NCBI GenBank assembly: GCA_965178125.1
Contig: OZ237757.1
Span: 744,001 to 808,000, forward strand
Length of the DNA stretch: 64,000 nt
Source of the DNA: Bilabrum cf. latius
Taxonomy: Eukaryota
Direction: 5' to 3'
In this document: piece after piece, positions 6,874 to 30,388 of the stretch
How the letters are laid out: each line of letters begins with the position of its first letter
How positions within the stretch are numbered: the first letter of the stretch is position 1
Position numbers and translations under genes: made by a program
The notes under the pieces: generated by a model
Databases searched by the model: none
Seen by the model: only the letters and a program-made list of their open reading frames with translations
What the model was told of the DNA's origin: nothing

Positions 6874-9800
6874 ATGATTGCCTAGAATGGTGGACTTTAC
6901 CGCAAGCGCAAGCGGGCGCGCAACCGCCTCAACAGACACAGTCTCCCATTGCGGCATCAGGTTGCAGCCACGGTGGGATGTCTACTTTTGATTCTTGCGT
7001 ACATTTTCGGCCGCCCTGCTAATCTGCCAGGCAGTCCGGAACCTGCAGATGAGCCAGCGAGCGAGTGTGCACTTGGGCCTGCCTCCCGTAGGAATGCCGT
7101 TCTGTCGCAATTTAGAGACTTAAAGTAGGCTTCTAGGATTTTGGTTGTAGATCAAATCTCAGTCTCAGACTGGCAGGGGGCATGGAGTGCTGACTTGCAT
7201 CTGGCGCCGAGAGGCTGGGAAGAAGCCATGTCATTTGGCATGTCACGCACCGGAGCCACCCGACAGGTAGCAAGAACTGAAATCATGCAGGATGCAGCCC
7301 CCGGCCCATACTCCCACTCAGATCGATTCCGAGACTCCTTGGAGCGAGCAGGCCTGGAGGCAGCCGAGCACCTGCCCATGCTCGGAACAGCGCTGGCGCT
7401 CGCACGGGAGAGCGGGCAGCCCCTCGCGATGGCTAGCGTGACATTCCTTCTCACCGGGCCGGGTGTGCAGGAGCTGGCTGCGGCCGAGCTGGCGGTAGCG
7501 CAGGCACTCACTGCGGGCAGCGAGGCCTGCGCTGACCATGCCATCCGCGCCTCAGGTGTATCCGCCGACCGCTTGTCCCTCCTGTTCGTATGGAGGGGGC
7601 TGGTGCGCCTCCTAGCCCAGCGGGGCATCCGGGCTCTTCTCCTGCCTCGCTCCCCGGGCAACGTAATCGTCACACCGGCCAGCGAGATGGCCTCCTCGGC
7701 CAGCGATTTTCTGGACTGGATCGACCCCACTGCCGCTACAGGGGGGGAGGAGCCCGGGGCGGCCCCGGTCCGACTGGGGCACGCATTGGGGAACACACTG
7801 AGGCACTCGTTGGGCGGAACAGGTGCCGCGGGCACGCTGGGTGACCACGGGCCACAGAGTGGACAGCCAGGCTCTCAGTCGAAACAGGCCGATTGGGCGG
7901 CACGGCTGCCACCAGCCGCAGAAGGCCTCGGACCGTTCGAAGAGGTGCACGTGAGGGCAAGCCGGTCGCCCGCCGTCCACGCCATGCGCCGGCGCCGGAT
8001 GGGTGTGACGAGTGCACTCGCGGGCACCCGTTTCGTGGTCCACGCGGTGGGCGGCGGGGACGACCGCATGGTTCGCCAGGGAAGGTTCGTTGGGTCCGTG
8101 GACGAGTTGGTCGCAAGTGCCGCGGAGTACGTCAGCGTCGAGCTGGCCGATGCCGTGGTCGCGTGGGATGCAGGCGCGCTCCGTCGGCTCCGGAGGGCGG
8201 GCGCAGCGCCGCGCAATCCCGTTCTGGTCCCACCGCCGCTGCCGAACTTCACCGCTGCCAAGAGCGATTGGACCATCAGAGACGCCCCTTCCAGCACGTC
8301 TGGAACCCCCCGTGGTCCCAGCACCACTCGTCCTCCTCGCACGCGTCCAGCTGCCTCGAGGCATAGCAGCCTATCCGCGGCTGCCGCCAACTGCCTCTCG
8401 CACCGGCTGCATATATCCGTTGAGTCCCCGTCCTGGACCCCACTGCTTGCGAGAGAGACGGGCTTGTCGCTGGTGAAAGCAGCGGAAAGCATGCTGCAAG
8501 AGCTGCACCAGCACCAGGGGCAGGGGTAGGGGTAGGCACTTAATGGCGGCGGCGGTATGATAGAATCAGAGCAGGGCGCGCGGGTGCTGTTCCTATGCAA
8601 GCTGCACTGCACTGTGGCGGTATCTACGATGCAGGCGGCCGGCCTCGACGTGAAGAAGCTGAGCCGCGGCACTGCTCACGAGAGCAAGGGTCTTGACGAG
8701 CTGGAGAGTGCCTGGTTCAAACGGGTGGACAAAGTGGAAGATACAAGCGAGAGTGGTCAAAGAGGCAATGACGAGGACGCGGCACTCCGGGGTACCGGCG
8801 AGGACACCTTGCGGCCTCTGGCACAGACAGGCGAATCTGCAGAGGCCGCCCAGCACAGGGGCTTTGCAAACGGCCTGGGCCCCGCGCTCGGTCACACCCC
8901 GGGCCAGGCGCTTTCTCATTCGGAGGTGCTGGAGGACCCGTTGGTTGGCATGACATCGCTGGAACTCGGGGGATAGTGGGAGGCCAAGTTGGACGGGTGG
9001 CGTTCGGCAGCTGCTTCCAACATCGGTAGCAGGCGAAGATACCACGTGTCTGTTGAGATCGTGCAGGTGAGCTCGTACAGCGTAGCGTGGAGGCGCGCTG
9101 GGCTGCTCGGGCAGGTGCCGGAGCTCTGCGCCCTCGCGTTGTTCCCTCCCTCCTTCGCCGATGCCGCCTGGGACGCGCGCAGGTTCGCAAGCTTGGGGAT
9201 CCCGCCCGTGCTTCCTGGTGCGTTGTCGACTGAGGTGGAAGACGAGGCCATGCTGGTGGCACTGCAGCCAAATGCTGTGCGCGTGGACGGGCCGGGGGAG
9301 TCAGCCGGGCTCATTGAAGCGAGTTTACCCGTCGCACGTGCTGGGTCAGACACTGGCTGGGGGGAGGCGTGGGGCGCGCGGGATGGCAGCACGTCGGAGG
9401 GCGACGCGTGGGTGCTTGATCGGTATGAGATGCCGTCACCCACCACGCTGGGCAGGTGGCTAGCCAGGTCATTCGCTGGAGAGTCGCCAAAGGGTCGCAG
9501 CGGAGTCTCTGTATCTGGCCTCATCGGGCGGCTGGGAGTCGGCAGCCGGCCGCTTGCAATCACAGATCTAGATGAGGCAAGCACGCCTACAAGCGGTGCT
9601 TCCTCTTCTGCTGCTGCAACGGGTCGCGGCGCGGTGCATCGGCTGGTCGGTACCGAGGCAGTGGCAGCTGGCCTGCGCCAGGTCCGTGCCGCATCGGAAG
9701 ATTCCGCGCGGGCCGCCGCTGAGGCGATCGCGAACGTTCGCGATCGGATCAAGAACGACCCACCGCTGGTGACCGTCTGCATCGCGACAAAGAACCGAGG

Positions 9801-10761
9801 GCAGCTCCTGGCAGAGGCGCTCAAGTCGATCCGGCGGTCGGACTACCCTGCCCTGCGGATCGTGATCGTGGAGGACGGCTCGGGGCAGCCAGAGAGGGAC
9901 AGGTTTGGAGCCACGCTGTCGGCTCTGGTTGAAGAGGAGACCGAAGGCAATGGACCTCGGCGGATGCTCACGGCAGGTGCAGCGGATGAACGACTCACAC
10001 GGCACGGAGCTTCTGCCAGGCCCTCTTCCGCTGAAGCGGTTCTGGAGAGAAGAATGGCGAGACCGGGCAGGGTCATCTGGACCGAGGGGCGAGGGGCAGC
10101 TACCGCGAGGAACGCTGCTGCAGAGGCCGCATGGGCGGATGCAGCTGAACTCGGCTCTGGTACCGCCAGTCATGGTGCCGGTGGTGGTGCCCCAGAAGAA
10201 GGCCTGTTGCTGTTCTTCGACAGCGACGACATCATTCGTCCCACCATGGTGACCCGCATGGTGACGTCACTGCTCCTGGAAGACGCGGACGTCGTGACGT
10301 GCTGGCCGGAGTCGTTTCGGAACACGCAGCAGCACACCGTTGGGATGGAGGAGGGCGCATGGAGGGGGCAGTGGAGGCCATTCGGGCCGTTCGGTGCCCT
10401 GCCTCTTCTCGCCAACACATTCGGAGGGGGCTCTGCGATGTTCCGCCTGGGCGTGTTTCGGGAGCTCGGCGGATACACTCCAGCGCCTGTGGGCCGAGCG
10501 CACCTCGACTACAACCTGCTCTCCAAAGCCAAGGCAGCCGGCAAGAGAGTTGTCCTCGTGCCCGCGATAGGGTATGACTACCGGGCCAACTCCCCTGGCA
10601 GTGTGTTTTCCACGTCCTGGTCCGCTGCATTGAATCGGATGCACTCTCTGCAGCCGTGGCTAGACGCTCAGGGAGATTGGGAGCGCAAGGCCGCGCTGCG
10701 GTATGTGTACGGCAGGACCGACTTGGCCATCGCGGGGAACAACGGGCTGGGAAACACTTGA
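6874..10761 (+). CDS. Glycosyltransferase family 2 (GT-A) protein, probable type II membrane protein
   Basis: ORFs 7141..8529, 8557..8976 and 8989..10761 are in one frame, joined by TAG (6883, 7126, 8527, 8533, 8974), ending in TGA. The N-terminus has a basic tail plus TM segment (VAATVGCLLLILAYIFG). GT2 motifs: LVTVCIATKNRGQLLAEALKSI..IVIVEDGS and LLLFFDSDD (DxD). Start provisional. Confidence 0.8.
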
Positions 10762-10903
10762 TGAACACTGTACATAGTTTCTGATGGGCGGACGGGGATG
10801 GATCTGGATGTGGGGTGCAGCGCACTGTGGCGGGCGCTTCTGTGATCCGATTGGCTCTGTCAGAAATATGGATTGTTGTACCGCTTAGTTCACTCGTTGA
10901 TCC

Positions 10904-13900
10904 TCACGCCTTGACCACCTTCACTTCGATCGCGGGCGACTGCATGGCTGGTTCCCACAGCCGTTGCTCCGCCGATGCAGATCGTCCCACCACCTCCTAC
11001 CCAGCGACAGCCTGCGCCTGTGCCGACAACGTGGCCGCAAAGCCGTCCAGCTTGTCGCAATGGACGATCACGTCGTACCTAGAGGGCTGGAAAGACTCCG
11101 GCAGCCACGCAGGGCCGCGTAGCTCCAATCTCTTCCGAAGGTCCAGGCCACAGCCAGCACTCCCTGTGCCGGCGTTGACACCTCCGACATCACTACCACT
11201 TGCAGCGGTAGCAGATGCACCACTTCCAGCGCCAGAAGACGGCCCTTCCTGCTCACCAACCTCCCCATCCCCTTCATTGCCCATGAGCTGCTCCTTGCGG
11301 GCCTCCAGCATCGTCTGGATCGACTCGAGCCGCTTCACGCGAGCAAGTTTGGCCACCTTTCGCAGGCCGGTACGGGCCGCGTGCTCGAGGAGCAGCTAGG
11401 CGCTGCTTAATTCGGGCACGCTGGTGCCCCTAGCCCCCGCCTTGGCTCTGGCTACCTCTGCGCTGGCCATGCATTCGGACCAACCCTATCCGCTGACTTG
11501 CTGCAGCCAGGGGTCGTCAGAAGACTCATCGGTGGTGTCGTCACCGTCTTCGCCTTTATCCGCCTTATCTGCGGCTTGTTGGATCGCGTAGATGGCCAAA
11601 GCCGCCGCTTCCCATGCATCCGCACCGTCTATTTCTGCCTGTGGCAGCGCCGCCGCACTCTTCAGGCCGCCCGACCTGCAGAGCAGCACCACGCCCGCGT
11701 GTGACCCATCGACCGGACTCGTTTTACCTGCAGACGGGCCGCGCACTGACACCCGCACCAGCGCCAAGGGGACACACCCCATGGTGAGAGCATGTTCCAC
11801 CAACACCCGCCTGCTCCCCACCTTCATGGCGACCCAGCCACCGAGCACCAGCCCTCGGGAGAGCAGCCCCAGGCCCCGGTCCTCCTGCTTCTGTTCCAGC
11901 TAGCCGACGAGGTCCCTGCCCTTCGCGATTGATGGCGGTGCTCCATTTGCATCCGCTTTCACTGCATCCCTTAGGGATGGTCTCTCTAGCATCGAGGTGG
12001 CGCGGTCCATGACAGCCTGCAGCACCAGTGCCAGGCTCCTTCGCCGCAATCCACCGATGGAGTCCTCGGGCCAAGCTCGCGCCAGGTCATCGGCGAGGCC
12101 CCTGGGCTACATAAAGGGAGGCACCACCACCCGCCACGCCTGTCCCGGCCGCAGGACGATCCGCACCGCCACGCTGCCGCGAGGGAACAATGTGCCTGGT
12201 GCCACGTGCAGGCGTGGCTTGGCCTTGGCCTGCCGCCGCCTGCGACGCACGAGTGCGCGGCTGCTTTGTACCTTGCGGAACTTGCCCGCCGGCGAGGTGA
12301 TGCGCGGCGACATGAGATTCCGTCTGGACAGCATCCCACCGCGCGTGGAGCCGGGCTCGCGCCCCTGCCCCTGCCCCAGCCTGGCAGTGGGTGCAGGTGA
12401 CAGGAGCAGGCTAGGCCGTCGTCCACGCGCAGTTTTCTTTCCGCCTCGTCTCGTACCATCGTCTCCGTTCTTCCCCTCGTCATCCTCTTCCTAGTTACCG
12501 CCGCCATCGACCTCATCGCCGGCTATTGGAGCGGTGTTACCCTGGGCACCGTGCTGCTCCCTCATGGGCTCCTTGTCGTTGCTGTCCGCGATGGCAAGCG
12601 GGGCCAGCCCAGCCCCGGTGCTGGAGATCCTGCTAGTGCCGCCGCCCGTTTTGCTGCCATAACGGGTAGCGCCATCCTCGTGCTCTGCTAGCTTTGTTGT
12701 TCCCTCGGCGCTGCCAGGGGCCGGTGCTCCCCTTTTGGCCGTCGTGTCTCGGTCTCTGACCTCCTGGCCATCGCTCGATGCATCTACGGTCGCGGCATGT
12801 CCGCCAGAAGCCGCGGAATTAACACCACGAGACTGAGGCCCGCCCGGCCCCTCTGCGGTCTATGCAACACCAATGGCTGGGGAATCATCTTTGCCGTGCA
12901 AGCCCTTCCCGAGAGCATCGGCTTCCATTGCGAGTCCGTTCGCATCGGCGTCTTCGAAGGGGGAGAAGCCCAGCGGGTGCAGCCGACCCATCCCATCGTC
13001 TGCTCCGGCTGCCATCAGCTCAGACCTCGTCCAATCCACCGCCTCTCTTTGGCCCAGCAGGCCAGGCCACGGCCCCTCCCCCTCAAACACAGCCTCGTCT
13101 TCATCATCGCCCCGCAAAACGACCCCGCCAACACCCGCCTCCCCTGGGTCCACCACACTGCCCTCCATCTCGAGCCCCGCCAACGCGAGGCCCAGACGAG
13201 CCCGGTACATGGCGTAGGCTAGCAGCATTGCTGCCCGCATCCCGCGGACGTCTTCCGGCATGGGCTGCGGCGGCGCCGCACCACCTCTTGCGGAACCACC
13301 CCCGGGGGACGGAGCCGGGACGGGGGCGGCCTGGCCAAGCATGTCCACGTTCCTGGTGGCGCCCGCAGGCAAAGATCCCTGCTGCAGGGCGAGCAGATCC
13401 AGCTCCGGCACGACGTACGAGTACATCACACGGTCGCCGGCGGTGGATTCGCTGGCACCGGGCTGGTTCTCTCCCTCTCCAGGGAGCCCCAAGTCGATGC
13501 CGAGCACCTGCACCACCACCTCGTACTCGTGCTCCGGGGCCTGCTGCCACCCCTGCACCATCTCGGGGAGCGGCTTCGTAAGCACAACGTGCCTGCACAG
13601 CACGATGTCTTCCACCCACCTGCCCCGGAACACCCACGCCCTTCCCTTCTTGTCCGTTTGGAGCCTCTCCTCGTCGGGCACGTCTCGCCGCAGCCTCCTG
13701 GCGAGCACCATTGCCGCCTCGTCCGAGATCCGCATCTCCTCCTCTTTGGCCACCTGGGCCTCCTCCTCCGGCGAGGGCGGGCCCTTGCCGAAGATCGCAG
13801 CGAAGAAGCCGCCCCTGGGCAGCGCGTCAAGCTTTGCCTGCACCCGTACTGGCGCAGTGCCTCCCTCTTCCCACCTTCGAAGCGCTGTCAGCTGCTTCTG

Positions 13901-16900
13901 AAGTACGCGGGAGGCCTCTTCGTCCACCTCCTCCTCGGCGCCCACCGCCTCGTGCCTACCGCTCCCATCTCCAGCAACGGCATCTTTCTGCGTGCTCGCG
14001 TCCTGTTTCTTCCTGTTTGGCTGTTTCCTCTTCTTCTTCTTCTTCTTCGGGGAGCCCAGGCTGCCCCCCATGCTAGGCACCGCACCTGACCGGATCAGCA
14101 TGGTGACTTCCTCCTGCAGAGCCAGCTCGAACCTGGGCCGCACCCTCCTCACGAGCACTCCCTCGGGCAGCGCCTTGCGCATGTCGTGCGCCTGTCTCAG
14201 GCGTTCCGCGACCCTGCGCTCCCTCAGCCCGCGGAACACTGCAGAGAACAGCGTGGCGGCGCTTGACTTCACGGCGTGGTCTGCCTTCCTTCGGTTCAGC
14301 TCACGCTTCGCCAGTGCCGCACGGACCGCGCTCTGCGCCCGGATCGCGGCCTCACGCTTACGGCTGAAATCGGCGCGGGCTTGCTTGCCCTTCCAAGCTG
14401 CGGCGATCGAGGAACTGGCTCGGGCCTGCTCGGCGAGCTTGCGGCGCTCCGCGTGGCCTTTCCAGACGCTCTGCAGCCGCTGCGCTGCCTCGGTGTGCTC
14501 GATTCGCATCCTAGCCGCGCGGCGCCGCGCGAGCATGCCCCGCGCGCCCGACTGGAGTGCCAGCACGGCGACTCTTCGCTTCTTCTCCTCAGCCATCTGC
14601 GGCGCAGTGAGGCCTCTGGATTGTCTGCCCCGCCACGCGGCCTGCACCAGAACTGCCGCCCTGTGTTCCCTGGAATCTTTGATCCCCGCGGCGCGTTTTC
14701 GGCCCTGCAGTCCCCGCCACGCCCGCTGCACTCCGGTGGCGCTCCGGTGGAGCGAGCGCACCTCCTCCCGCCCTGTGTGACCCCGCCACGCAGACTGTAT
14801 GACGAGTGCGGAGCGCTGCGATTGCATCCTGTACGATCGGGCCCGCTTCCTCGCCAGCGCTCCCCGCACCACTCTCTGAATGGCGGTGGCGGCAGCACCG
14901 GCGTGGATGCGCCAGCCCTTGGCGTACAGCCGGTCCATGTGCCCCCTCCACAGCGCCTGCATCCCCACGGCGGCGGTCCTTTGTCTTGACCTGTGCAGCA
15001 GCAGCATGGTCCGGGTGGCCCTTCGGATGGCATGCCCCCTCCAAGCCGACTGGATCTCCACGGCGGCCTCCTCGCGGGCCCTCCATCGTGTGGCTCGCTG
15101 CAGCACCGCCAGCTCGCGGCTGATCTGCCTGCGCGCGGCGTGAGGGGCGCGGAGCACCCTGCGTGCGGACTGGGGAGGCAGCGGCTGGGACCGGGCAGAT
15201 TGCCCCTGCTGCTGCCTGTGCATGCCCGATGGCTGCTAGTGCTGCTGCTGGGCGAACAGCGACTCGCTACTTGCTGCGATGGGGGCGGACTCGTGGGCGC
15301 CGTGTTCCCTGGCCCTGCCGGTGCCGCGGCCAGCTGTGGCGCGATTTTCGATTCCGAGTCCGTGACCGATGCCGAACGGCAGTCGGCCCAATCCGCCCGC
15401 TGGCGCGGGCACGGGTGCAGACCTGCCCCCGCCCGCCAGCGCATGCCTGGAGCGATCGTCACCTCCATCAGCGCCAGCAGGTGCGGGTGCCAGTTTCCCA
15501 CCACCAGAGACAGGAAGAGGACGAGCACGTCCTTGGCCACCAGCTGTGGATGCGTTGTTCCCTGGGACGCCAGACCCTCGCTCCTCGTCCTGTGCCTGCC
15601 TTGCGCTCCCCGCGCCCTGCAGGCCGGGCTCGAGCTCTGCATCCAGATCATCGTCAGCAGCCTCGCCCGTCTCGGGTGCACCATCGTGCGATGCATCCGC
15701 GCCACCGTGCTGCTCGTCCCAGCGCCTCCCGGCTTCTGCCACCCTGCGCGCCCTGTGCGTGGCGGGCTGCTGCATGTGCCTCTGCCGCCGCATCAGCATC
15801 GCCCTCATCTGCTGGTACCGGAGCTCAGCGAGCCCCCCCGGGCTGAATCCAGGGTAGGCGGGGGAGCGGGCCGAAACGACGTTGCGGCTGTACGGGGAAG
15901 CACTCGTCACACCGCGTCGAGCGGTAGAGCTGCCCCTCCCGCCCGAGTGGCCCCGGGCCCGCCCCTGCCTCCCCCCTACCTCGTCATCATCCTCATCCTG
16001 TTCTGAGGGGTCAGTGTATGCGCGAACCGTGGCCACGGTCGCAGCCCGAGCGGCCTCGCGGATTCCCCTCAGCGACAGACCGGGCACGTGCTGGCGCACC
16101 CGCGGTATGCTCCCTTGATGCTGATGCTGCTGGCGGTCCCGCGGGGGTTTGGGGCTGCCCCGGCGTGCGGAGTGGGCGCCCTGGTGTGACGAGTAAGATG
16201 AGGAGAGGATGGGGCTCCATCTCGGCTTGTAGCCGCGGTCTTGCTCCTGCTCCATACCATGCTCCACGAGGGGTACACTCACCACAGTGTCGGTGGTGGC
16301 TGCTGTGTTCCCCAGCGATGCCCCTTCGGTGGCGGGAACTGCTGATGAACGACCGCCTCCGCGATGATGCAGGCCCCTGTCGCTGCTCATGCCTCGTTTC
16401 TAGCTGCCACCGCTCGGTGGCGGTGGGGCCGCCTCTCGCCAGGCGGCGGGCACCGAGTACCCTGCGGATGCCCCGCCGCGGCCGAGCCTCGAATCCACGT
16501 ACCGGCGGGCCCCTGATACCACGCCAGACTGGTACAGACCGCGGGTCCGGGGCGTCTGCTCGGCTATCGGGGGTGCTGGTGTGACGAGTGCGCTGCCCCT
16601 AGACGTCGGGGACGTCCCGGGGCGCTTGGGGATTGTGCGCGAATGCTGGTCTGAGTTTTGGAGATGGCGGCCCCCGCCGACGCTGGCGCGAGATGCGCGG
16701 GTGTGACGAGTGTCATCGCGACCGAGGTCGCGATCCTGCTCGTCGTCATTCCCACGGCTCGCGCCCGACCTTGATGCGTCGGCGAGGGCCCAGCCAAAAG
16801 GCCGGCCGAGGCGGAGGCCCTCCGCTTCTTCCGGCTTTCCGCCGGTTTGGCCACCGTATCCGTGATTGGTGCTGCGATCATTGTGTCCCGTGCCAGTACT

Positions 16901-19900: not shown

Positions 19901-22900
19901 GAGCCACTCCCTCGCCACCTGCCCGGTGGGAATCGCACCTGCGCTCGACCTGCGCGCCGCCACGGCGAGCTTCTGCCTGGGGGTGAGGCCCAGCGCCTTG
20001 GCGGGGATCATGCCTGTTTCCGCGGTCTCGATGAGCATCCCAGCCACGTCTCTCGGGGCAGCATCCGCGGCCTCCTCGGGCGACAAGCCGTGCTCGGGCA
20101 GCAGCAGCTGGGGGCCCGCGGTGGAGGGCCGCGCCGAGGAATCGCCCCCATGCGCGCCGCTCCTGCCCGACTGCCGCTGCTGTTGTTCCCTGGACCGATT
20201 GCCGTCCCGGCTGCCATAGTCCCCAGAGCCCCGCATGTTCCGCAAAGCCAGCGGCGCCACGCGACCCTTGGAACCACCGGAGCCGCCGCTGCCGCTGCCG
20301 CTGCCGCTGCCGCTGGCTGCATCCGTACCACCCACGTCGCCGTAGTGCCCCTCGGCACTCGGGTCGTATCCCAGCTCGCCATGTGGCCCCGCCACGCCCG
20401 GCAGCGCTCGCCGCGGGGACGACTTGGCTGCGATCTGCTTCTTCTTGGTCTTGACCTCGGGGGCAAGCTCTGACCCCGCCATGGGGGCTCGCGGGGTGGG
20501 CGGCAGCGGTTCCGCAGTACCCGCCGGCGGCGCCGCGTGCCTCAGGGAGCGAGCGGCGTCCCGCATGGCTCGCCCGAGCGGGTCCGCGAGAGCCGCCGCT
20601 CGCCCCAGCGCGGCCTGGCAGGCCTCCCACCCCTCGGTATACGCCACCCTGGCCTGCCACAGTTCCATGCGGTGCTCGTGGGTGGCACCCAGGTTGTAGC
20701 ACGCGCCCATCAGAGCGGGGAGGGCACCGTCGTTCACCGCCCGGCGCAGCGGCGTGACACCGTCCAGGGTAGGCTCGGCCACGAACGCGCCGACGCGCCG
20801 GGCGAGTGCAGACGTCACGGCTCGGGACATGGTTCTGGTAGCCTTTTTCTTGCTCGCGCCATCGTGGCCCCGCCGGGACCGGGACTGGCCTCCGCGGCGA
20901 GACGCTGCCTGGCTGCGGCTGGTGACCCCCGTCCGGCGGGAGGCCGCGGTGTGACGAGTGGTGGCGCTACCGACCGATGCGGAGTCGCCGATCGCTTCGC
21001 CCGGATCGACTTCCCCTGCCGCCAGCATACCGCTTCGCGCGCTCGACGGCTGGTTGCCAGCGGCAGATGTCCTGGACCTGGTCGACCTGGCGGACCTCGC
21101 CGTCGAGATGCCCGGGCTGTCACTCGTCACACCCTATTCCTTGTTCTCCGGACTCCGGGCCGAGTCTCCCCCGCCGCCTCCGCCACCACCACCTCCACGA
21201 ACTGCCCTGCCGCCCACCCTGTCGAATTTCTTGGGCCGAAGCACCGGAGGCGGCGGCAGCGCGTCTGGCCCGAACACCGCAAGGATGAGTCGTCGCATCC
21301 TCCTCTTGGCCGCAATCGCGTGTGCCTGTGCCTGCTCCATTCGCTTGAGAGCCATCAGCGGGGCGCACACGGCCAGGTGCGCCTTGGCCGTCTCGATGGC
21401 CGACTGCGCCTCGCCGGGCGTCAGCGGCAGGTACCTCACATAGGCGGGCACCTGGGCGGCGGAGTCGTCCACCTCGTGACCCGCCGGCGCCGCGAGCGGA
21501 ACCACCGATCCACCGGTGGAGCCCGTTCGGGTCCGACTGGCCGTTGTGCTGCTGCGCATCAGCACCCCGGCACTCGTCACACCGCCGGCGGCCTCGATGG
21601 CCGGCATGGCCCTCGCCAGAGCACCCACCTCCTGATCCGAGGCCCCGAACGGGTTCGTCACACGGCCGCTCTGGCTCGTCACACCACCGTACCCGCCACC
21701 GCGGGAGCCCCGGGCTGCCGCAGCATCCCTGGCCGCAGCCTGCATGGCTTTGTCCATGGTCTCCGCGGGATCGAACCCCGATGAGGGCCCCATCCTCACC
21801 TTTGCTTGCGCGAACCGGGCCCCGTGGAATATGGTGGGCTCCTCGCCCCCTGGGACTCGTATGACCCTGCCCCCGCCTGCTCTCTGCTCCTCCATGCGCT
21901 TCTCTCCCTCTGTGTCGCCCACGATGGTCACTTTTAGGCTGCCGTCGTCTTTTTCTTCTTCGTCTTCTTCATTCTCCGTTCCGCCTCGTGCTGCACCCCC
22001 GCCGCCGCCGCCGCCGGAGAGGGAGACTTCGCCCGCCCGCCTCTTGACGATCTCTGCCGCGGCTGCCATCGCAACGTCCAGCCGTTGCAGCCCCATGAGC
22101 GGCGCGCCGCCCTCCCCATGCCCCACCAGCCCCTGCTCGTCCAGCACCGGCTCGCCCCCTGCTTTCCCCCCGCCCGACCCACCTCGCCCCCCCTCCTCCT
22201 CGTCATCGTCCCCACCTTGCCCTCCGGTCACCTCGCTCCACATGGCCTCTGCCCCCTTTCGCCTCGCCTGCTTGTGCCCCTCGGTGGCCAAAGACGCTGT
22301 GCCCCGACGGAGGCCCCCGCTCGCGTTCCTGGCGAGCCGGTCCACGGGGACGTCATCCAGCATGGCCCGGCGGGGCAGGTGCGTGCTCCGCACCGACACT
22401 AGCGCGCGGCGCCCCTTGGGCACGCGGCCGCTCGTCACGGTACCCGCCGACGGATCGTTGGGGTCTGCAGCGTACCGGCCCAGGCGGAACCCCGTCCCAG
22501 ACTCCCGGCCAGAGCCGATCCCACCGGAGGCCGTTGAGCCCTCGTCTCCCATGCTGGAACGACTCATCACAGATCCCTCGCCGCCGCCGCTTTGGCCACT
22601 CGTGCCACCCGCGGTGTACCCGCCCTCCGTCTCCGCATCCTCCGCGATCCCCACCCCGGACAGCGCCCCGGTACCCGCTGTTCCCCGAGTGGCCACAGAC
22701 GCACGGCTGCCCCTGCGGCTCCCCCGCGCGGACCCCGAAATCTCTGCGGAATTCCCCTGCAGCTGACCCCCCGGGGAACCACCGCTTTTCTTCCCCTGCC
22801 CCTGCCCCTGCCCCTGCCCCTGCCCCTGCCCCTGCCCCTGCCCCTGCCCCTGACCCTGCCCCTGCCCCTTGCCCCGGCCGTGCCTGGCCGCTTTCAGGTC

Positions 22901-25900
22901 AGCCCGCCTAGAGACCGCGTGCTGCCTGACCGAGGCGTCTAGCACACGCTTGCGCAGGGCGGCGGCGAGCGCCACGTCCTGCGCCCCCGTCGCACTCGTC
23001 ACACCACCGCCGGTGGCGGACGCCAGCCCCGCCGCCAGGAGGAGCCGCCCGTCCCTCTGGGCCTCCTCGCTGCTGCCTGGCCTAATCGCCTCCCCCTCCT
23101 CCCCCCCGAAGAGCCTGGCGGGGTCCTCGCCCGCCATCCGGCGGCGGGTCCGGCCCTCGGAGCGAGCGATCACGGACTCGGAGTCCCTGCCCCAGCGCTG
23201 CAGCTGCAGCTGGTGGGCCCCGAGCAGCTGCAGAGCCTCGAGGGCGCAGTTGAGTGCCTCCTCCGGCCGCCCCGCCCGCATCAACGCCCCGGCTGCGTGG
23301 CTCTGGGCCTGGGCCAGCCGAGGGGGGGCGGCCCAGGAGCTCCAGCGGTCCGAGGCGGCGCGTGCGGCGCGGCGCCGCGCCTGGGGGTGGAGGTTCCGCA
23401 TGCCCCGCTGCAGGTCGAGCAGGGCGGTTTTGCCCCCGCGCTCCGCGGGCGCGTCGTCGTCGTCGTCGCCACCGTGCGATGCACCCGATCGAGTCGACGC
23501 CGACTCGATCGATTCCAGTGGATTGCTATCGCCATTTGCAGCCTGGCCCGGGCGGTGAGGCACCAGGTCGAGGGTGTCTCTGGTGCCCCCTGCTACTGCA
23601 CCCCCCTGACGTGCGCCTTCCCGGGCGTGCTGTGACGAGTGAGGTGGGAAGGAGGGTATGTCCTAGGGGGTGGCGGCTAGGAGAGCACGCTCGTCCTCGC
23701 CCCCCGTGAATGCGGGTGTCCGGGCCCGCATGCCCCCCCTCGAGGCCGGCACCTGTGGCACGGTGTCTTTGGAGCCCCGTCTGTGGCGATGTTCCGCAAA
23801 CACGCTCGAGGGAGTGCGCGGCGCCGGGCCGGCCCTGGCCGCCCCCACGTCCGTCGCTCGCATCGGCGTCATGACGAGAGGCCCGGATCGCGCGGCGCCG
23901 GTTCCGCCGTGGCTCGGGGGCGTCAACGCGGCGCGACCGCTGCTGGCCGGGGCAGCGTCTTCACCTGAGGCGCTGCCCCGCATCCGGGCCACCGGGGTGC
24001 GCGGCGCCGAGGATGCGGAACCGCCCGGGGCAGCCCGGCTCGAGTCGTCCATTGGAAAGGCGCCGAGATCCTCCAGCCTGGTTGCAACCGGGTGAGGATC
24101 GGTGTGACGAGTGGATGCGCCGCTTCCCTTCGAGCCGCGGATGGCGGCGGCCAGGGGGTGCTCTTGCTCCTCCTGCTCCCGATGCAGCCTTTGTCCCACT
24201 CCTGTGTCCGCGGTGCTGGCTGTGCTGCCCGCGGTCCGGCTCGATTGGGCGCTGCCCAGCAGCTGCCTGCGCTTGGGGTGACCCATTTCCGATTCCGGGT
24301 CCCCGGCAGAGCCCGCGTCACCCCCCTCCCCGTCCCCCTCCCCCTCCCTTGGGGTCAGGTCGAGCACGGTGTCGTGTCCCTCCGAATCCAGGCTAACCAG
24401 CCTCGTGCGATGCACCCCGTCCTAGTGGTCGAGATGCTGGCCGCCGGTGAGATCCCGCTGCTGCTTTTGCCACTGCTGCTGCTGCTGCTGCTGCTGCAGC
24501 TCGCCCACGTCCACGTCCCCGTCCACAGACGGGTCCGTCACCGCGGTGATGCGAGAATGGGCCGAGTCGGGCCTCAATTGCGCGGCGCCGCCGAAGCGGA
24601 ACCTCTGAGGGGAGGGCCGGCCGGACTCGCCGGTCCCTACGGAGGCTGCCCCGAGGGGGCTGGGGAACACAGAACCGCCGCTTTGACCACCCGCGCTGGT
24701 GAGGGCACGTCTCGGGGGCAGGCCTTCCTCGTGCTCGTGCTCGTCACCGTCGCTCGCTTTCTATGCGGCAGCGGTACCTCCTTCTCGTTCTCCTCCTTCT
24801 TGTTCTCCTTCTTGTTCTCTGTCTCGCCGGTGCCCAGCAACAGCCCCCGTCCGAAGCTCCTCTCCTTTCCTTGGCATGAAGGCGTCCCGCCTAGACATGC
24901 CCTCGTCGTCGTCGTCGACCCCAACCCCCCTCCTACCCCCTTGCTCCCCCCTACCCCCGCGCCTGACCCCACTTCCCCCGGGTAGGGCGGGGACAGACAC
25001 CCCGTCCGGCGCATCTCTAGTACCGTCCCCAGACTTGGTCGATCCCCCCGTTGTTGTCGTTGTGGGCGAAGAACCGGCCGACCTGCGCTCGGAGAGAGGG
25101 GACCCCTGATGCCTCACGATGGTGGTGGCTCCGATCGATACGCGCCTCTGCTGGCGACGGACCCTGCGCACGGCCTCCGACCGGCTCTCATCCAGGTGCG
25201 CGGCGGCGCCTCCTGCGGAACCTGTTTGCGCGGCGCCGCCGTCCCGCCGCAGGATCCCACCGATGGACTCGTGGTCTCCGCCTCCGCCCCTGCCCCTGCC
25301 CCTGCCAAGCACCGGCCGCGCGTCGTCACCGACGCCCGTGGGTGCCTCAGACACCCCCGACACGGACGGAGCATCGTCTCCGCGGAGACGCCTGGCTGGC
25401 TGCGCTCCCCTTCCCGAAGCAACTGCTCCTGCTCGCCTGGTCCCGTGGCTGCGCAGCCCCAGGCCGGGCGAGCGAAGGCCTTGCCGCGCGGCGTCCACTA
25501 CCGGGCCGCCCATCCTCTCGTCAAACGCATCGGAACCGCCGTTCAATTCGAAGTCTTCCTCTTCGTCGACAGGGCCGAGCAGCGCGGCGGTAGCGTCCGT
25601 GAGCACTTGCAGCTTCATGCGGCCGTCGTCCGATCCGGCGCCGCCCCGCTCGACTCCGTGGGCGGAAGCCGGGTGCTCGGCTTCCTGTGCTATCGATCTA
25701 TTCAGTCTGTTGATCTGCCTGTCCTCTTCCTCCAGGGCAATTGCAAGCTCAAGTGTTGCCGCGTCAACGAACGGAGGCGGGGCTACGCCGGGCCCAGCAC
25801 GCATGGCATCCTGGACGCTTGCTTCCTCCAGCAAAGCATTCAGCTCATGTAACGTTGGATCCGGAGGCTCTGCGGCACGCAGGCGCGATGAACCACAAAA

Positions 25901-26039
25901 TAAAAGATTCAGAAGTGACGACGAGCGCAAAGGGTTAAGGGCCGTTGGCACCGTTCTAGGGATTACTTGAGGCAAAGGGCAGCACATATGCGAGCCTCAG
26001 CTTACTTTTAAATACTGGCGGTCTTTGTGACCGCGACAT
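10904..26039 (-). CDS. Giant (~5,000 aa) low-complexity protein with an array of IQ calmodulin-binding motifs
   Basis: Thirteen ORF-track fragments lie in one frame, separated by 16 TAG and no TAA/TGA until TGA 10904. Short exon 1 (26039-26006) and a phase-matched intron 26005-25870 (GTAAGC..GCAG). IQ motifs at about 14200-15080 (IQSAWRGHAIRR, IQRVVRGALARK, VQRAWRGLQGRK, LQSGARGMLARR). Confidence 0.75.
15901..24113. other. Cluster of dispersed 13-bp motif GGTGTGACGAGTG / CACTCGTCACACC
   Basis: Exact copies at 15901(r), 16578, 16700, 17078, 18110, 19733, 20948, 21121(r), 21571(r), 22993(r) and 24101; two more exact copies at 8002 and 27825. Confidence 0.9.
22793..22869. repeat. (CCCCTG)n hexamer repeat encoding poly-(Gly-Gln)
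   Basis: Direct reading; encodes GQGQGQ in the giant minus-strand CDS. Confidence 0.9.
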
Positions 26040-26405
26040 GTCGAACTTTACGTTCTGCTAGCGGGAAGGAAAGGTTTCGGCAACGGATGTTGCATTGCAT
26101 GGAGGTGCAAATTGCGGTGTGGTCGCTGGCGGAGGTCGCAGCAGCTGCTGAGCAGCATCCTAGATCGAGCGATGATATCCATGCACGCGCCGCATTCAAC
26201 TCCATACCCGGAGCATAAGCTGCCTAGTCAACCCTGTTATAGCAGCGGGGAAATTCACCCGGCTGCTGCCCCGGTAACGGCGTGCAGCGTGTGTGGTGTG
26301 TGTGTGCACGGGAGGTCGCAAAGTCCTCGTCACATGCGTCGCACCACCGCCGGCGGCGGTTGGATCAATCCAGATTCAAGCGCCTGGTAAGCCCTAGGCT
26401 AGGTC

Positions 26406-29234
26406 ATGGAGGATGCATCGAAGTTTATGGACGCTTTGCCCTCCCGGCTGACCGAAAAACATGCGGCCAAGCTTGCTCTGCAAGCTAGCGGACAAGCAAA
26501 CAAAATGGCGTCGCACAAGGCGTTTCGCGGCTTGGTCGTCTTGCTTGCAGAGGCAGTAGCAGAACCGCCCAGCCAAAAATCTAGGCTGTATGCGCTTGAA
26601 GCTCTCTCTGAGCTTGCACGCGGTGTCGTGCAGTTTCGGCCAGCCGAGCGCGAGTACGTGCTCATGCAGCTGCTCGAGACAGCAGGGGAGCCTCTCGAGG
26701 AGCTGCTAACTCGAAAGGAGCGGGGCAGGAGCGAATTCGGCGACGCGGCCTTTTCCTCAAGCCTGCATGAAACTGTGCTCGTGCTCCTCGTCCGGCTGCA
26801 AGGCTACAAGCTCCGGGCCTCTGATTTGCTCGAGCTGCTCGCGGGCGACGTCGCCCTCGGAGCGAGGCTCGTTGCCAAGGCCCTTCGGGTGGACGACTAC
26901 GAAGCAGAGGCATCCGCGGCACTGTCTGCTCTTCTTGTGGACCTCACGCGGCCGGACGCATACTTTGGGATGGGCGCGGGTGCGGGCGATGGCTCCTCCT
27001 CTGCATCGATAGAGCACGCCGACGGGAGCACCTCCCTGGGCGCGTTCACTGCCAGAGTGGACGCGGTGGGGCAGTATGTCCTCTCGCAGCCGGGGACGGA
27101 GGCGCTCGGCGTGGTGTGCGAGGGCCTGGGGCACAGGGCCGTGCGCGCATCGAGGTCGCTCCAGAGGGCAGTCAGGGCGGCCAGCGGAACCGGGGGCAGC
27201 GCCGCGCAGCGGGCCCTGGATGGGCTGCAGGAGGCGTGCGCTGACGTGGCTCTGGCGCACACCTCCTGCGGCGCCGCGGCGAGGCTTGTGCGGAACCTGT
27301 GGGAGTTCTCCAGCGTGGGGGTGGGCGGCCGGGTGCCTGCTCACATGGCACTGGGCTGCGGCCAGTACGTCGATCTCATGGCGGCACAGGCGCGGCGGGC
27401 CTGCTTGGAGGCTGCGGTGCTGCGGCGCCTGGCCGTGGGAGAGCTGGGTCAGGTGGGTCTCCCCGGGAAACGGCGGAGAGTGGCGGTCCGTGCGGCGTGG
27501 GCGGCGGCCCGCTGCGCGAGGTCGTGCCTGGAGTGCCTCGCAGTAGTGGGGTTCAGGGGAGGAAAGGGTGTGTGGGGGCGGGTGCTGGGGGCTCTGATGG
27601 CGGGGGGCAGGGCGGAGTAGGAGGAGGAGGTGGCCAGAGTGGCTGCACGGGCGGCGGGTGCAGCGCACGGCGGTGCGGCAGCGCTTGGCAGCCCCAGGCA
27701 GCGGGGGGGCCTGTGGTGGCTGTCTGGCCTGGCGGAGCCCGGCGGCGCCGCGGTGCTACCCGCTTTGGTTCCGCTGCTGGCGGTGCTGGTGAACTGCGAA
27801 GCCCTCGCACCGGCGGGGTGGGCCGGTGTGACGAGTGCGGGCGGCGCCTCGTCGCAGTCGCAGAGGCTGGGCGGGGCGGGTGCCAGCAGCGGGGTCCAGG
27901 AGCCCATGCCCCTCGGGAGGGGGGCGGCGTCGGGGTCCGGAGCCGGAATGCACGCCTGGGCGGAGTCGCTGGTCGCCGCCGCCGTTGGGCCCGGGGGCGA
28001 CCTGTCGGACGGTTCCGCAGCCGCTGTGCGCGGCGCCCTGGGTGGCGGTGCCGCGCGGTGCGGGGATGGGGTGTGCGTGTGGGGGGCGGCTGGTTCCGCA
28101 AAAGCCGCCTGGGACACCGTGGTGCGCGGCGCCGCCGGTTCCGCGGGGATCTAGCTGTCGATTGGGTGGCTGCCGCTTGCACGAGACGGCCCCTCCTACG
28201 GCCGTCTGATGGAGCTGCTTGGGCGCGAAGAGGGGAAGGAGGACGAGGGAGAGGGAGAAGCTGTAGTGCCCGGAGCAGAAAGTGCTGCGGCTCCAGACGC
28301 AAGCGGCGCGGGCAAGCAAGGAAACACTGAATCCGCAGCAGCAGACGCAGACCCATCCTCGCATCCTGCAGCCGCACGCTCGCCAGCACCAGCACCGGCA
28401 CCAGCAGCGCCTAAGGCCGAGCCGAAGGCAGCTGCGACCGCAAGCAGCGCATCTACCGGGCTGTTAGGCCCCCTCCCCTCCCTAACCCCCGTTCACAATC
28501 CTGACTCCGCTGCTGCACTGGAGGAAGCGGCCAGGGCTGCAGAGGGCGCTCTGGAAGCCCCCGAGGCCAGGAGACGCAGGGAACAAGCGCTCGCTGCGGC
28601 CCGTCGCGCGGCGCCCAAGGCCGGTTCCGTAGGTCTTGGGGTGCCCCCGAAGCTCCTGTGCGGGCTAGGGGGTCACGTGGTGCGCGATCCCGTGAGGACG
28701 CATGCAGGGGGGCCGGTGTACGAGCGGTCCTCGCTGGAGCGGTGGGTGGCCAAAATGGGGCGCGTGGATCCGGTGACTGGGACTGATTTCAGCGAGGGGG
28801 GTGTCCTTGAGGCCGGTGATGTGCGTGAGGAGGCAAGGGCCTGGAGGGTAGGGGCGCAGAGGGACGGTGGAGCGGGCGAGGGGAAGGGGAAGGGGAAGGG
28901 GAAGGGGAAGGGGCACAAAGGGGGGTCTAAAGGGGGCAAGGGAGATGCGGGGGTAGGAACAGGAGCAGGTAGCAGCAGCAGGCCAGCAGGAGAATCGCAC
29001 ATTGCTGAAACTGCAAGTGAGGTGGGTCTGTCTGGGGGCATGGCTCCTGCCGTGGGGGGCGCGGGCAGCTCGGATGGGAATCTCATGGGACTGTTCGAGG
29101 AGGAGGACGAGGTGGGAGGGGAGGGCATGGGGTCGGGCGGGGGCATGATGGGGGCTGCTGGTGCCGGGGCAGATAGCGTGTCTGCGCTGTTAGGCCGTGG
29201 GGATTTCCTGGGAGATGACCTGTACGAATTTTGA
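26406..29234 (+). CDS. U-box domain protein (putative E3 ubiquitin ligase)
   Basis: ORFs 26406..27620, 27630..28154 and 28209..29234 share a frame, joined by TAG at 27618 and 28152, ending in TGA. U-box motif VPPKLLCGLGGHVVRDPVRT..VYERSSLERWV..DPVTG. Confidence 0.8.
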
Positions 29235-29462: not shown

Positions 29463-30145
29463 TCAGTCCCTATCCTCAAATGCCTTCACAATGGTCGAGT
29501 GGTCGCACAGCCCCTTCATGAATCTGCAAGAGGTGAGAAGAGCAATGGGTGGTGGCAAATTGCTGACCGTCTGATTTACAGTGGCTCGTTCACAAGCAAC
29601 GACACGCGCGCGATACCCGAGTAGGGCCGTGCAAATATATGCAAATACACTGCTGCTCACCTGTTGCACTTATCGGCGATCGCGCGAACTACGGTATTGC
29701 GACTGCCGGTAGTGATCCCCACGCCTGTCAGCCATTTGCCGAATGCCTCCTGCAATAATCAAAAGCAGGGACCGCGGACAGCTACCATGCTCAAATCATG
29801 AGCCGGCATTGGGTCGCTATAGGTGAACTGGCATGGGAATCTCCCCAAGCTCAAGGCGATCTTGCGAAAGTTCGCAAGATCCAATTTAAGGATCGGTCGG
29901 CACTACCAACATATGGCTTTGCTCACACAGTGGTCCAGTGAAGACGCGCTCTTCTCATGCAAGCTCAAGAACTAGCCGATCACCGCAACGGTACTGGTGC
30001 AACCAGCATCCTGCAGTGCCTTGACGTACGCAGGACCGATGCCCGGGATCGTGAGGAGGTCCTCGTCGATATCATCCGATACGAACTTGTCAATGCTGCC
30101 CTTGGCTGTCTCGCTCTTGAGTGGGTCATAGTGTACTCCTGCCAT
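29463..30145 (-). CDS. Barrier-to-autointegration factor (BAF)-like protein, copy A
   Basis: Exons 30145-29927, 29749-29661 and 29523-29463 (GT..CAG introns, phases match), 122 aa, TGA end. KFVSDDIDEDLLTIPGIGPAYVKALQDAG..AVIG*FLSL..EAFGKWL resembles the BAF helix-hairpin-helix fold (LAGIGEVLGKKL..VVLGQFLVL..FREWL). In-frame TAG at 29972. Confidence 0.75.
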
Positions 30146-30388
30146 GTCGTTCTTCTGTGCCTTTTGATTTGCTGAAATTGTGAGCATGTAGTCGGCGTAT
30201 TGCCACCTGCGTGCAAATCCGGAACACAGGAACCGGAACCGGAAGCAGGCGTCCGGAACACTCCGGGACAACTCCTTGATACACGTTCTACTATACCTCG
30301 ATTGAATTACCGCTACCCTAATGACCCCGACTGCTGGTAACGGAGCCATAATCTGATAGGGCTACTGGACCACGTGGCTGGTCTCGGT

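What the first reader, a model, noticed from the sequence alone, without database searches (positions are those of the whole stretch)
8002..27837. A 13-bp DNA motif (GGTGTGACGAGTG) written repeatedly into coding sequence regardless of frame or strand
Seen: 13 exact copies (8002, 15901r, 16578, 16700, 17078, 18110, 19733, 20948, 21121r, 21571r, 22993r, 24101, 27825). There are also 10-12-bp versions at 16183, 17180, 19755, 21675r, 23631, 54886, 55150 and 61511r. A given 13-mer is expected far less than once in 64 kb. Flanks are unrelated and the motif is translated as GVTS, TRHT, LVTP or HSSH/YSSH, so the signal is at DNA level, not protein level. Copies concentrate in the GC-rich interior of long genes. 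Inference: a genome-wide protein-binding or processing site (chromatin, replication, recombination or methylation related), conceptually like bacterial HIP1, Chi or uptake sequences.
Basis: partly seen in the sequence, partly recalled or inferred. Interest (0 to 1): 0.72.

Follow-up and report, generated by a model that had tools for sequence, protein, structure and literature searches.

The report
Recurring DNA words written into genes
A single-celled eukaryote has a 13-letter DNA word, plus several companion words, written thousands of times into its protein-coding genes even where this changes the proteins, and their placement along chromosomes suggests that recombination favours whichever gene copy carries the word.

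Summary
Observation confirmed. GGTGTGACGAGTG has 13 exact copies in the window and 1,527 in the 48.6-Mb genome (reversed control 0; about 950-fold over expectation), on both strands. The host is a stramenopile that reads TAG as Gln; 11 of the 13 window copies sit in one 5,027-codon ORF. The signal is in the DNA: all five stop-free frames are used, 146 of 173 GVTS peptides are motif-coded, and a change that is synonymous in the main frame is 59-fold rarer than the exact word. Flanks are unshared, so it is not an insertion element, nor the telomere repeat. It is one of at least five such words. A relative saturated at synonymous sites carries the same set at mostly different positions. Sites are rare between genes, denser on small chromosomes and 50-300 kb from chromosome ends, and sit in local GC peaks. 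Best reading (0.45): binding sites of abundant nuclear proteins driven up by biased gene conversion, the mirror image of PRDM9 hotspot erosion. Main rival (0.3): weak selection on site density for a chromatin or meiotic role. No reader protein is identified; binding and drive are inferred, not shown.

The parts
8002..8014 (+). M1 exact copy, read as GVTS in the glycosyltransferase-domain gene
15901..15913 (-). M1 exact copy (GVTS)
16183..16195 (+). M1, 1 mismatch (YSSH)
16578..16590 (+). M1 exact copy (LVTP)
16700..16712 (+). M1 exact copy (TRHT)
17078..17090 (+). M1 exact copy (TRHT)
17179..17191 (+). M1, 1 mismatch at the tolerant first base (HSSH)
18110..18122 (+). M1 exact copy (TRHT)
19733..19766 (+). 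M1 exact copy plus a 1-mismatch copy 21 bp on (in-frame tandem pair, TRHT twice)
20948..20960 (+). M1 exact copy (TRHT)
21121..21133 (-). M1 exact copy (GVTS), directly after an in-frame TAG
21571..21583 (-). M1 exact copy (GVTS)
21654..21685 (-). two partial M1 copies 21 bp apart (GVTS, RVTN)
22993..23005 (-). M1 exact copy (GVTS)
23629..23641 (+). M1, 1 mismatch (HSSQ)
24101..24113 (+). M1 exact copy (TRHT)
27825..27837 (+). M1 exact copy (GVTS) in the U-box gene
54886..54911 (+). M1, 1 mismatch (YSSH), followed by the palindromic companion word M4 GGTTGCAACC at 54902
10904..25987 (-). host ORF of 5,027 codons with 16 in-frame TAG and IQ motifs; holds 11 exact M1 copies and many companion words
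   Evidence: collinear in an approximately 90%-identical relative in run X9 over most of 14500-28300
6874..10761 (+). host ORF with a glycosyltransferase family 2 domain (true start uncertain)
26406..29234 (+). host ORF with a U-box domain
23890..23907 (+). companion composite M5 (GCGCGGCGCC) + M3 (GGTTCCGC), example with no spacer
28124..28144 (+). companion composite M5 + M3, example with a 3-nt spacer
24080..24089 (.). companion palindrome M4 GGTTGCAACC
17592..17600 (+). companion word M2 TGTTCCCTG (one of 11 in the window)
23474..23483 (+). companion word M6 GTGCGATGCA (one of 7 in the window)
6742..6751 (+). weak M1 variant in intergenic DNA just upstream of a gene (possible promoter-type site; untested)
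26326..26334 (-). 9-bp M1 core in the intergenic gap between two divergent genes (untested)

Best explanation
M1 and its companions are recognition sites of abundant, conserved sequence-specific DNA-binding proteins (inferred). During homologous recombination, an allele with a perfect site is transmitted slightly more often than one without, because the bound chromatid is cut less often or because the bound protein halts resection or heteroduplex extension so the site is copied but rarely overwritten (inferred; the sub-mechanism is not resolved). Over time this biased gene conversion writes perfect sites wherever protein constraint is weak (Gly/Ala/Ser/Pro/Arg-rich loops, also introns and UTRs), in proportion to local conversion rate, and restores them after decay. 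New sites are purged from intergenic and promoter DNA, where they would disturb regulation (inferred). SHOWN: enrichment, DNA-level constraint, specificity profile, shared specificity with positional turnover, chromosome-scale pattern, local GC peak.
For: (1) An ongoing force keeps sites exact: 1,527 exact vs 26 G9A, which is synonymous in the dominant GVTS frame; ln ratio 4.1, so a weak force suffices. (2) Tolerance is position-specific: C8T 142 vs G9A 26; T12V 279 vs T5V 25. (3) Individual sites are not kept: 1 of 11 M1 sites and 0 of 13 companion sites of the relative fall at the aligned position in 4 ortholog pairs; 1 of 3 GVTS peptides in P0124. (4) Density falls with chromosome length (rho -0.45, p 0.007, contigs C1-C34; about 10/Mb on C1-11, 81/Mb on C30-34), and the contigs are mostly telomere-capped. 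Density peaks 50-300 kb from ends (O/E 1.5-1.6), drops in the last 50 kb (0.18) and in centres (0.55), p 2.5e-6. This is the usual shape of crossover landscapes (recalled). M2 shows the same shape and co-locates with M1 (median 8.9 kb vs 38 kb null). (5) Four-fold GC is +10.8 points within 30 bp of M1 and fades by 500-1,000 bp after gene, amino-acid and neighbour-base corrections; peptide-matched anchors show none; composition-matched 12-mers give -0.3 vs +5.4 points. M3, M4 and M6 show similar peaks. (6) Two TP6A_N (Spo11/Top6A), one Mnd1 and three HORMA hits exist. (7) Such drive toward repressor-bound sites was predicted for KRAB-ZNF motifs (PMC5705219, passages).
Against: (a) The GC peak round M1 is strand-biased: mostly G and G-runs on the motif's own strand, whereas plain GC-biased conversion is strand-symmetric; only part of this is ascertainment. 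(b) Background four-fold GC does not track motif density across chromosomes in disordered sequence: 0.585 (C1-11), 0.607, 0.573 (C14), 0.603 (C30+), and 0.69 on three motif-poor contigs; ordered sequence tracks it only partly. (c) C14 (1.2 Mb) is the densest contig (about 170/Mb) and breaks the size rule; M4 shows no clear distal peak. (d) Motif-rich tiles also hold more disordered coding sequence, so gene content may explain part of the chromosome pattern; those tiles were chosen for being rich. (e) The fixed spatial relations between words (M3-M5 pairs, M1-M5 exclusion) are at least as natural under selection for function. (f) No recombination map, polymorphism data or reader was available; the meiotic families found also occur in non-meiotic roles.
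Confidence: 0.45

Rival explanations
1. Weak natural selection on site density. The bound factors do a job inside long GC-rich gene bodies or along chromosome arms (nucleosome barrier, suppression of cryptic transcription, handling of G-quadruplex or R-loop-prone strands, loading of cohesin, condensin or meiotic axis proteins on small chromosomes). Any position in a region serves, so sites turn over; a large population size makes a very small advantage effective.
For: 27 vs 1.1 exact sites per 100 kb in coding vs non-coding DNA; depletion in the first 600 bp of ORFs (13 vs 30 expected; ORF starts uncertain); G-run-rich flanks on the motif strand; M3-M5 pairs within 11-40 bp 68 vs 10.0 +/- 3.0 and M1-M5 0 vs 6.5 +/- 2.5 (30 comparisons made); the M5-M3 arrangement recurs in the 155-bp subtelomeric satellite; three of four ortholog pairs are motif-bearing in both species.
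Against: No regular spacing or nucleosome-scale or 10-bp periodicity among 446 M1 pairs. Density varies more than 20-fold among chromosomes, and long disordered ORFs on C1 and C10 have no sites. At least five unrelated words behave alike, which needs five parallel functions. Up to 14 sites crowd into single inflated proteins.
Confidence: 0.3
2. A replication- or repair-linked ratchet without sex, as proposed for cyanobacterial HIP1: a sequence-specific base modification or bound protein tells mismatch repair which strand to keep, so mutations that complete a site are fixed and those that break it are corrected.
For: Sharp exact-over-near ratio and graded edges, as in the HIP1 model (PMC4390886 section 3.4); complete turnover of positions; C5 methylase genes exist in the assembly.
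Against: 8 of the 11 PF00145 hits lie in AT-rich virus-like islands and 3 on small contigs; none was found as an ordinary host gene. The CpG in the word decays asymmetrically (142 vs 26). A non-palindromic 13-mer is long for a methylase target (recalled). The model predicts saturation at even spacing, not chromosome-size and telomere-distance dependence.
Confidence: 0.12
3. The word is inserted or copied as a unit: a tiny mobile element, a transposon footprint, a telomerase-like templated addition, or local template switching.
For: All 17 M1 pairs closer than 40 bp are same-orientation and a multiple of 3 apart, so local duplication happens; sites lie in expanded loops.
Against: Flank sharing between copies equals a column-shuffled null (extension of 10 nt or more in 0.02% of 18,240 same-frame pairs vs 0.02%; no excess among near pairs). 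The telomere repeat is TTAGGG. 13 bp is not a multiple of 3 yet frames stay open. Neutral decay after insertion would not give position-specific variants.
Confidence: 0.05
4. An RNA-level or protein-level signal (splice or processing element, RNA-binding site, favoured peptide).
For: Sense copies outnumber antisense 211 to 79.
Against: The sense excess is largely what codon usage predicts (expected sense share 0.62, observed 0.73) and antisense frames are enriched as strongly. Peptides are encoded by the motif's own codons far above expectation while permuted control peptides are not. No shared fold in 6 contexts, no Rfam match. Contigs of runs guessed to be RNA run through several sites without gaps (their RNA status is a guess).
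Confidence: 0.04

Closest known systems
DNA uptake sequences (USS/DUS) of Pasteurellaceae and Neisseriaceae
   Same: Hundreds to thousands of copies of a short asymmetric word, many in coding DNA, in several frames, at poorly conserved residues, raising the frequency of the encoded peptides (PMC2817400, abstract). Accumulation is usually ascribed to molecular drive.
   Different: Eukaryote with no known uptake step. The peptide effect is far larger (GVTS about 22-fold in a motif-enriched sample vs about 2-fold for tripeptides). At least five words act in parallel. Density depends on chromosome size and telomere distance.
HIP1 (GCGATCGC) of cyanobacteria
   Same: Frame-independent over-representation in ORFs, edge-tolerant variants, the same debate between repair ratchet and selection (PMC4390886 abstract and section 3.4; PMC5861425 abstract).
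   Different: HIP1 is an 8-bp palindrome tied to known methylases, conserved in position and periodic. M1 is a 13-bp non-palindrome, not conserved in position, not periodic within 1 kb, with no matched methylase.
PRDM9 motifs and the predicted drive toward KRAB-ZNF sites
   Same: A DNA word coupled to recombination with a local GC peak; drive toward recombination-suppressing sites is predicted in PMC5705219 (passages).
   Different: PRDM9 sites erode and change specificity fast (recalled). Here sites accumulate and specificity is stable across synonymous-site saturation. No SET or KRAB domain was found in the three zinc-finger arrays scanned.
Chromosome-marking motifs: C. elegans MEX/rex and pairing-centre words, Drosophila MRE (recalled, no call)
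   Same: Short eukaryotic words with strong chromosome-scale heterogeneity.
   Different: Those mark one chromosome or one end. M1 occurs on nearly all chromosomes in a graded way and is rare outside coding DNA.
Chi and KOPS (recalled, no call)
   Same: Asymmetric G-rich word over-represented in coding DNA; Chi acts by stopping end resection, one of the proposed sub-mechanisms.
   Different: No strand polarity at genome scale (773 vs 754) and the GC peak is symmetric on both sides of the word.

Membership tests
DNA uptake sequences | strong over-representation on both strands, in coding DNA, several frames | tested here: met
DNA uptake sequences | bias toward poorly conserved protein positions | tested here: met
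   alignments; correlation with low-complexity content
DNA uptake sequences | naturally competent bacterium with sequence-biased uptake machinery | tested here: not met
   host is a eukaryote with TTAGGG-capped chromosomes and stramenopile-like IMPDH
HIP1-type sites | GC-rich palindrome | tested here: not met
   M1 is non-palindromic; only companions M4 and M7 are palindromes
HIP1-type sites | matched host DNA methyltransferase | tested here: inconclusive
   11 PF00145 hits, in virus-like islands or small contigs; specificity unknown; adenine methylases not searched
HIP1-type sites | positional conservation between species | tested here: not met
   1 of 11 M1 sites shared, at a divergence where synonymous sites are saturated; not tested at 10% divergence because one search did not list the motif positions
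HIP1-type sites | periodic spacing | tested here: inconclusive
   none within 1 kb; 10-90 kb periods not tested
PRDM9-type hotspot motif | local GC-biased substitution peak | tested here: met
   but strand-biased and measured as composition, not as substitutions
PRDM9-type hotspot motif | erosion of sites and fast change of specificity | tested here: not met
   sites abundant and specificity shared with a distant relative
PRDM9-type hotspot motif | reader is a SET-domain zinc-finger array | tested here: inconclusive
   tandem C2H2 arrays abound; no SET or KRAB in 3 of 3 arrays scanned; no link to M1
sequence-specific protein-binding site (general) | position-specific tolerance of substitutions | tested here: met
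sequence-specific protein-binding site (general) | occupancy by a protein in vivo or in vitro | not testable with these tools
   needs pull-down, footprinting or ChIP
interstitial telomeric repeat / small insertion element | word equals the telomere unit, or copies share flanks or target duplications | tested here: not met
Chi/KOPS-type polar signals | strand polarity or one-sided effect | tested here: not met
   773 vs 754; symmetric GC peak; replichore-level polarity not testable

The most novel reading that the evidence does not exclude
In this stramenopile lineage, meiotic gene conversion systematically favours alleles bound by several general DNA-binding proteins, so their recognition words invade protein-coding sequence genome-wide and reshape the proteome: a eukaryotic counterpart of bacterial uptake-sequence drive and a direct, large-scale case of the inverse hotspot paradox, with motif density serving as a fossil recombination map. 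An expanded family of PRDM9-like zinc-finger arrays may be part of the same system.
Probability: 0.35. Interest if true: 0.9.

Novelty: new variant of a known kind. Interest (0 to 1): 0.77.

Why it matters
Frame-independent DNA words that rewrite proteins are known from bacteria (uptake sequences, HIP1, Chi), where drive versus selection is still argued. A eukaryote with several such words at about 1,000-fold enrichment, two relatives at useful distances (one about 90% identical, one saturated at synonymous sites) and a chromosome-level assembly makes that question directly testable by polymorphism and crosses. If drive holds, it shows that non-adaptive transmission bias can insert thousands of amino-acid changes into a proteome, and it tests the prediction that recombination-suppressing binding sites spread. 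If selection holds, it points to an undescribed gene-body code for chromatin or meiotic factors.

Tried and rejected
Telomerase addition: rejected, the telomere unit is TTAGGG. Insertion element or footprint: rejected, no shared flanks. RNA structure or known RNA family: none; no tRNA in the window. Nucleosome or helical periodicity: none. CpG deamination as the source of variants or of the GC peak: rejected. Virus link: the scan of viral contigs gave single matches only in the 80 loci listed of 120 or more, not followed further; the host's AT-rich virus-like islands have no copies, which composition alone could explain. Co-occurrence of M1 with other words within 600-nt windows vanishes once GC and low complexity are modelled (z -0.2). 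Chromosome-level background GC as a proxy for recombination gave a mixed result. Site conservation at 10% divergence: run X9 holds a collinear relative, but the listed rows did not cover the motif positions. No RNA holder is on record for the stretch; this is no evidence on expression. Searching for the FTase-alpha ortholog at full length found nothing, and one fragment among shorter proteins, so the spread of the motif to named relatives such as Cafeteria is untested. Predicting a reader from the C2H2 recognition code (recalled) gave no match for the 8 loci read. The Atlas gave no hit for the array N-terminus. Structure-database alignments added no informative TAG column. Earlier scan notes: nothing for this genome or sequence, and 8 notes from other genomes that do not bear on it. 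Literature: no description of this word or system; subscription journals and preprint supplements are not covered.


Full report
Observation. The window is G000:C23:744001-808000 of a 48.6-Mb assembly, which holds 1,527 exact copies (773 plus, 754 minus; reversed-pattern control 0). An order-3 Markov model scaled to the genome expects about 1.6, so enrichment is about 950-fold.

Host. Contigs end in TTAGGG arrays, and nearly all of C1-C42 have telomere tracts near one or both ends, so contig length is close to chromosome length. TAG is a sense codon: reading it through joins the window's fragments into ORFs of 5,027, 2,240, 1,295 and 942 codons. In IMPDH the TAG column is Gln in 116 of 120 homologs and CAG in the relative; 7 other TAG columns could not add support (6 in fast-evolving orthologs). 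The best named IMPDH hits are stramenopiles, the first a Cafeteria species at 71%. I infer a bicosoecid-like stramenopile and go no further. 11 of the 13 exact window copies lie in the 5,027-codon IQ-motif ORF.

The signal is in the DNA. In 847 kb of own-genome sequence (tiles plus motif-centred loci, so not a random sample), 290 of 307 copies of the 12-bp core lie in called ORFs, read as GVTS 186, HSSH 39, TRH 31, CDE 25, LVT 9 and the TGA frame 0. Every open frame is enriched thousands-fold over codon usage. GVTS occurs 173 times against 7.7 expected, and 146 of the 173 use the motif's codons against 0.4% expected; permuted control peptides use the matching codons 0 of 64, 0 of 49, 0 of 17, 1 of 7 and 0 of 61 times. 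Genome-wide, G9A, synonymous in the GVTS frame, has 26 copies, while C8T, which changes Thr to Met there, has 142; T5V has 25 (control 9) and T12V 279 (control 7). Edges are graded. This is the profile of a recognised site (about GGTGTGAYGAGYG), not of an insert decaying at random. Flanks are shared no more than a column-shuffled null predicts. Only the 17 pairs closer than 40 bp look like in-frame local duplications; spacing up to 1 kb is otherwise flat.

It is one of a family. A Markov scan of 576 kb found further words: M2 TTGTTCCCTGG, M3 GGTTCCGCA, M4 CGGTTGCAACCG, M5 TGCGCGGCGCCG, M6 GTGCGATGCACC, M7 TCCACCGGTGGA. Genome counts are M2 1,396 (control 17), M4 337 (control 2) and one orientation of M5-N0-15-M3 358 (control 0). 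M3 and M5 pair within 11-40 bp in all four orientations (68 vs 10.0 +/- 3.0), while M1 and M5 avoid each other (0 vs 6.5 +/- 2.5) (30 comparisons). A 155-bp subtelomeric satellite carries the M5-M3 arrangement, exactly so in the L012 variant. M1 is absent from it.

A relative shares the words but not the sites. A metagenome scan for two M1 copies within 30 bp gave 43 loci. I kept 17 as coming from a TAG-readthrough eukaryote and dropped 3 duplicates and 23 that are bacterial, tandem repeats or unassigned. In these 65 kb, selected on M1 only, M2 occurs 24 times (0.7 expected), M5 18 (0.2), M4 6 (0.1), M3 5 (0.8) and M6 0 (0.5). Its IMPDH is 93% identical to the G000 protein but only 68 of 198 four-fold sites match. 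In four ortholog pairs 1 of 11 M1 sites and 0 of 13 companion sites align with a site in G000; 1 of 3 GVTS peptides is shared in P0124. In the relative M1 also occurs in apparent introns and intergenic DNA. Run X9 holds a closer relative, about 90% identical and collinear over most of 14500-28300, but the rows returned did not cover the motif positions.

Where sites lie. Coding DNA has 27 exact copies per 100 kb, non-coding 1.1. Density rises with Gly/Ala/Ser/Pro/Arg content and with four-fold GC; an FTase-alpha-type protein is inflated to about 1,285 residues and holds 14 sites. From complete position lists for two flank-defined subsets, density falls with contig length (rho -0.45, p 0.007, C1-C34; six lengths interpolated): about 10/Mb on C1-11, 21 on C12-29 without C14, 81 on C30-34, with C14 an outlier at about 170. 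Within chromosomes M1 is enriched 50-300 kb from ends and depleted in the last 50 kb and in centres (89 vs 60 expected, p 2.5e-6; C1, C14, C23, contigs of unknown length and C30+ left out; sites within 2 kb merged). M2 follows the same pattern on C2-C3 and lies close to M1; M4 does not show it clearly. Around each M1, four-fold GC is 11 points higher within 30 bp and returns to baseline by 500-1,000 bp, after correction for gene, amino acid, next base and local disorder. Composition-matched 12-mers do not reproduce this. The excess is mainly G and G-runs on the motif strand, on both sides.

Mechanism. The exact-to-G9A ratio of 59 corresponds to a scaled force of about 4 per step, so weak drive or weak selection is enough, and small regional differences in force would give large differences in density. 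Turnover of positions, several unrelated words behaving alike, the size and telomere-distance pattern and the local GC peak fit biased gene conversion in favour of protein-bound alleles, either because the bound chromatid is cut less or because the protein blocks resection (the yeast break landscape and resection blocks by general regulatory factors are recalled, not from a call). Spo11/Top6A, Mnd1 and HORMA families are present. Against it: the strand-biased peak, background GC that does not follow motif density across chromosomes, the C14 outlier and confounding by gene content. I give drive 0.45, selection on density 0.30, a HIP1-like repair ratchet 0.12, insertion 0.05 and an RNA or peptide signal 0.04.

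Candidate readers. The genome has 1,067 zf-C2H2 candidates (150 scored) in clustered genes. Six of eight loci read are arrays of 12-14 near-identical 29-residue fingers that vary almost only at helix positions -1, 2, 3 and 6, behind an acidic VIDLVS-type motif that resembles a SUMO-interacting motif (label recalled); no SET or KRAB domain was found in the three scanned. Oomycete C2H2 proteins have two to five fingers (PMC11267843, passages). Such fast-changing arrays are unlikely to hold one specificity across synonymous saturation, so a conserved factor is the likelier M1 reader. Nothing here links any protein to M1.

Comparison and novelty. It works like bacterial uptake sequences (PMC2817400, abstract) and HIP1 (PMC4390886, abstract and section 3.4; PMC5861425, abstract) but fails their defining tests: eukaryotic host, non-palindrome, no positional conservation. 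It mirrors PRDM9 erosion; drive toward KRAB-ZNF sites was predicted in PMC5705219 (passages). Searches for the word and for such a system in protists returned nothing relevant (listings only); the one bicosoecid genome preprint checked mentions neither motifs nor recoding and has a different size and GC (passages; its supplement was not seen). I rate it a new variant of a known kind, interest 0.77.

Noticed in passing
window 10904-25987 (-), 42312-49034 (+), 59717-64000 (+); L294: The nuclear code reads TAG as Gln while TAA and TGA stop (116 of 120 IMPDH homologs have Gln at the TAG column). The relative shares the readthrough. The passages seen in PMC11687900 list UAG-only Gln for Iotanema and some ciliates; no stramenopile case appeared.
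   Followed up: partly
L345-L350 (G000 C3, C5, C4, C13, C9, C20): Large family of clustered C2H2 array genes with 12-14 near-identical 87-bp finger repeats varying at DNA-contact positions, a SIM-like acidic N-terminal motif and no SET/KRAB: PRDM9- or KRAB-ZNF-like architecture in a protist; possibly aimed at the endogenous viruses.
   Followed up: partly
L121-L129, L075, L080, L084, L093, L309: AT-rich (31-42% GC) virus-like islands in several chromosomes carry an rve integrase and a C5 methylase; in L125 the methylase is fused to Tet/JBP and FkbM domains. Their genes use the host's TAG readthrough.
   Followed up: partly
L012, L014, L015, L023, L024, L027, L311, L313, L314: 155-bp subtelomeric satellite alternating with telomere tracts; carries the M5-M3 arrangement and an M2-like word; period is about one nucleosome.
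   Followed up: partly
G000 C1 (1.2-1.6 Mb) and C14: C1 has an internal cluster of M1 and M2 like two chromosome ends, and C14 is far denser than its size predicts and starts in an AT-rich stretch; both could be fusions or misjoins.
   Followed up: no
window 29972-30349 (-) and 31438-31815 (-): Two 125-codon ORFs with the same weak helix-hairpin-helix hit, apparently a tandem duplicate of a small BAF-like gene.
   Followed up: no
window 6742-6751 and 26326-26334: Weak M1 variants lie in intergenic DNA near gene starts; non-coding DNA is enriched for 8-9-bp cores (O/E 5-14) but nearly lacks the perfect 13-mer, which may mean weak sites serve as ordinary promoter elements.
   Followed up: partly
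L081-L094 (G000 C14): Genes sampled on C14 use TAG for 26% of Gln codons against 3-18% on other contigs.
   Followed up: no
window 4898-5297, 45260-46440, 48544-48871, 56644-57057: Coding minisatellites of 69, 12-multiple, 126 and 81 bp inside long ORFs; they do not contain M1.
   Followed up: no
L126, L130, L131 (G000 C91, C81, C86): Three C5-methylase-like ORFs on small GC-rich contigs, possibly DNMT5/6-like or from another organism in the assembly.
   Followed up: no
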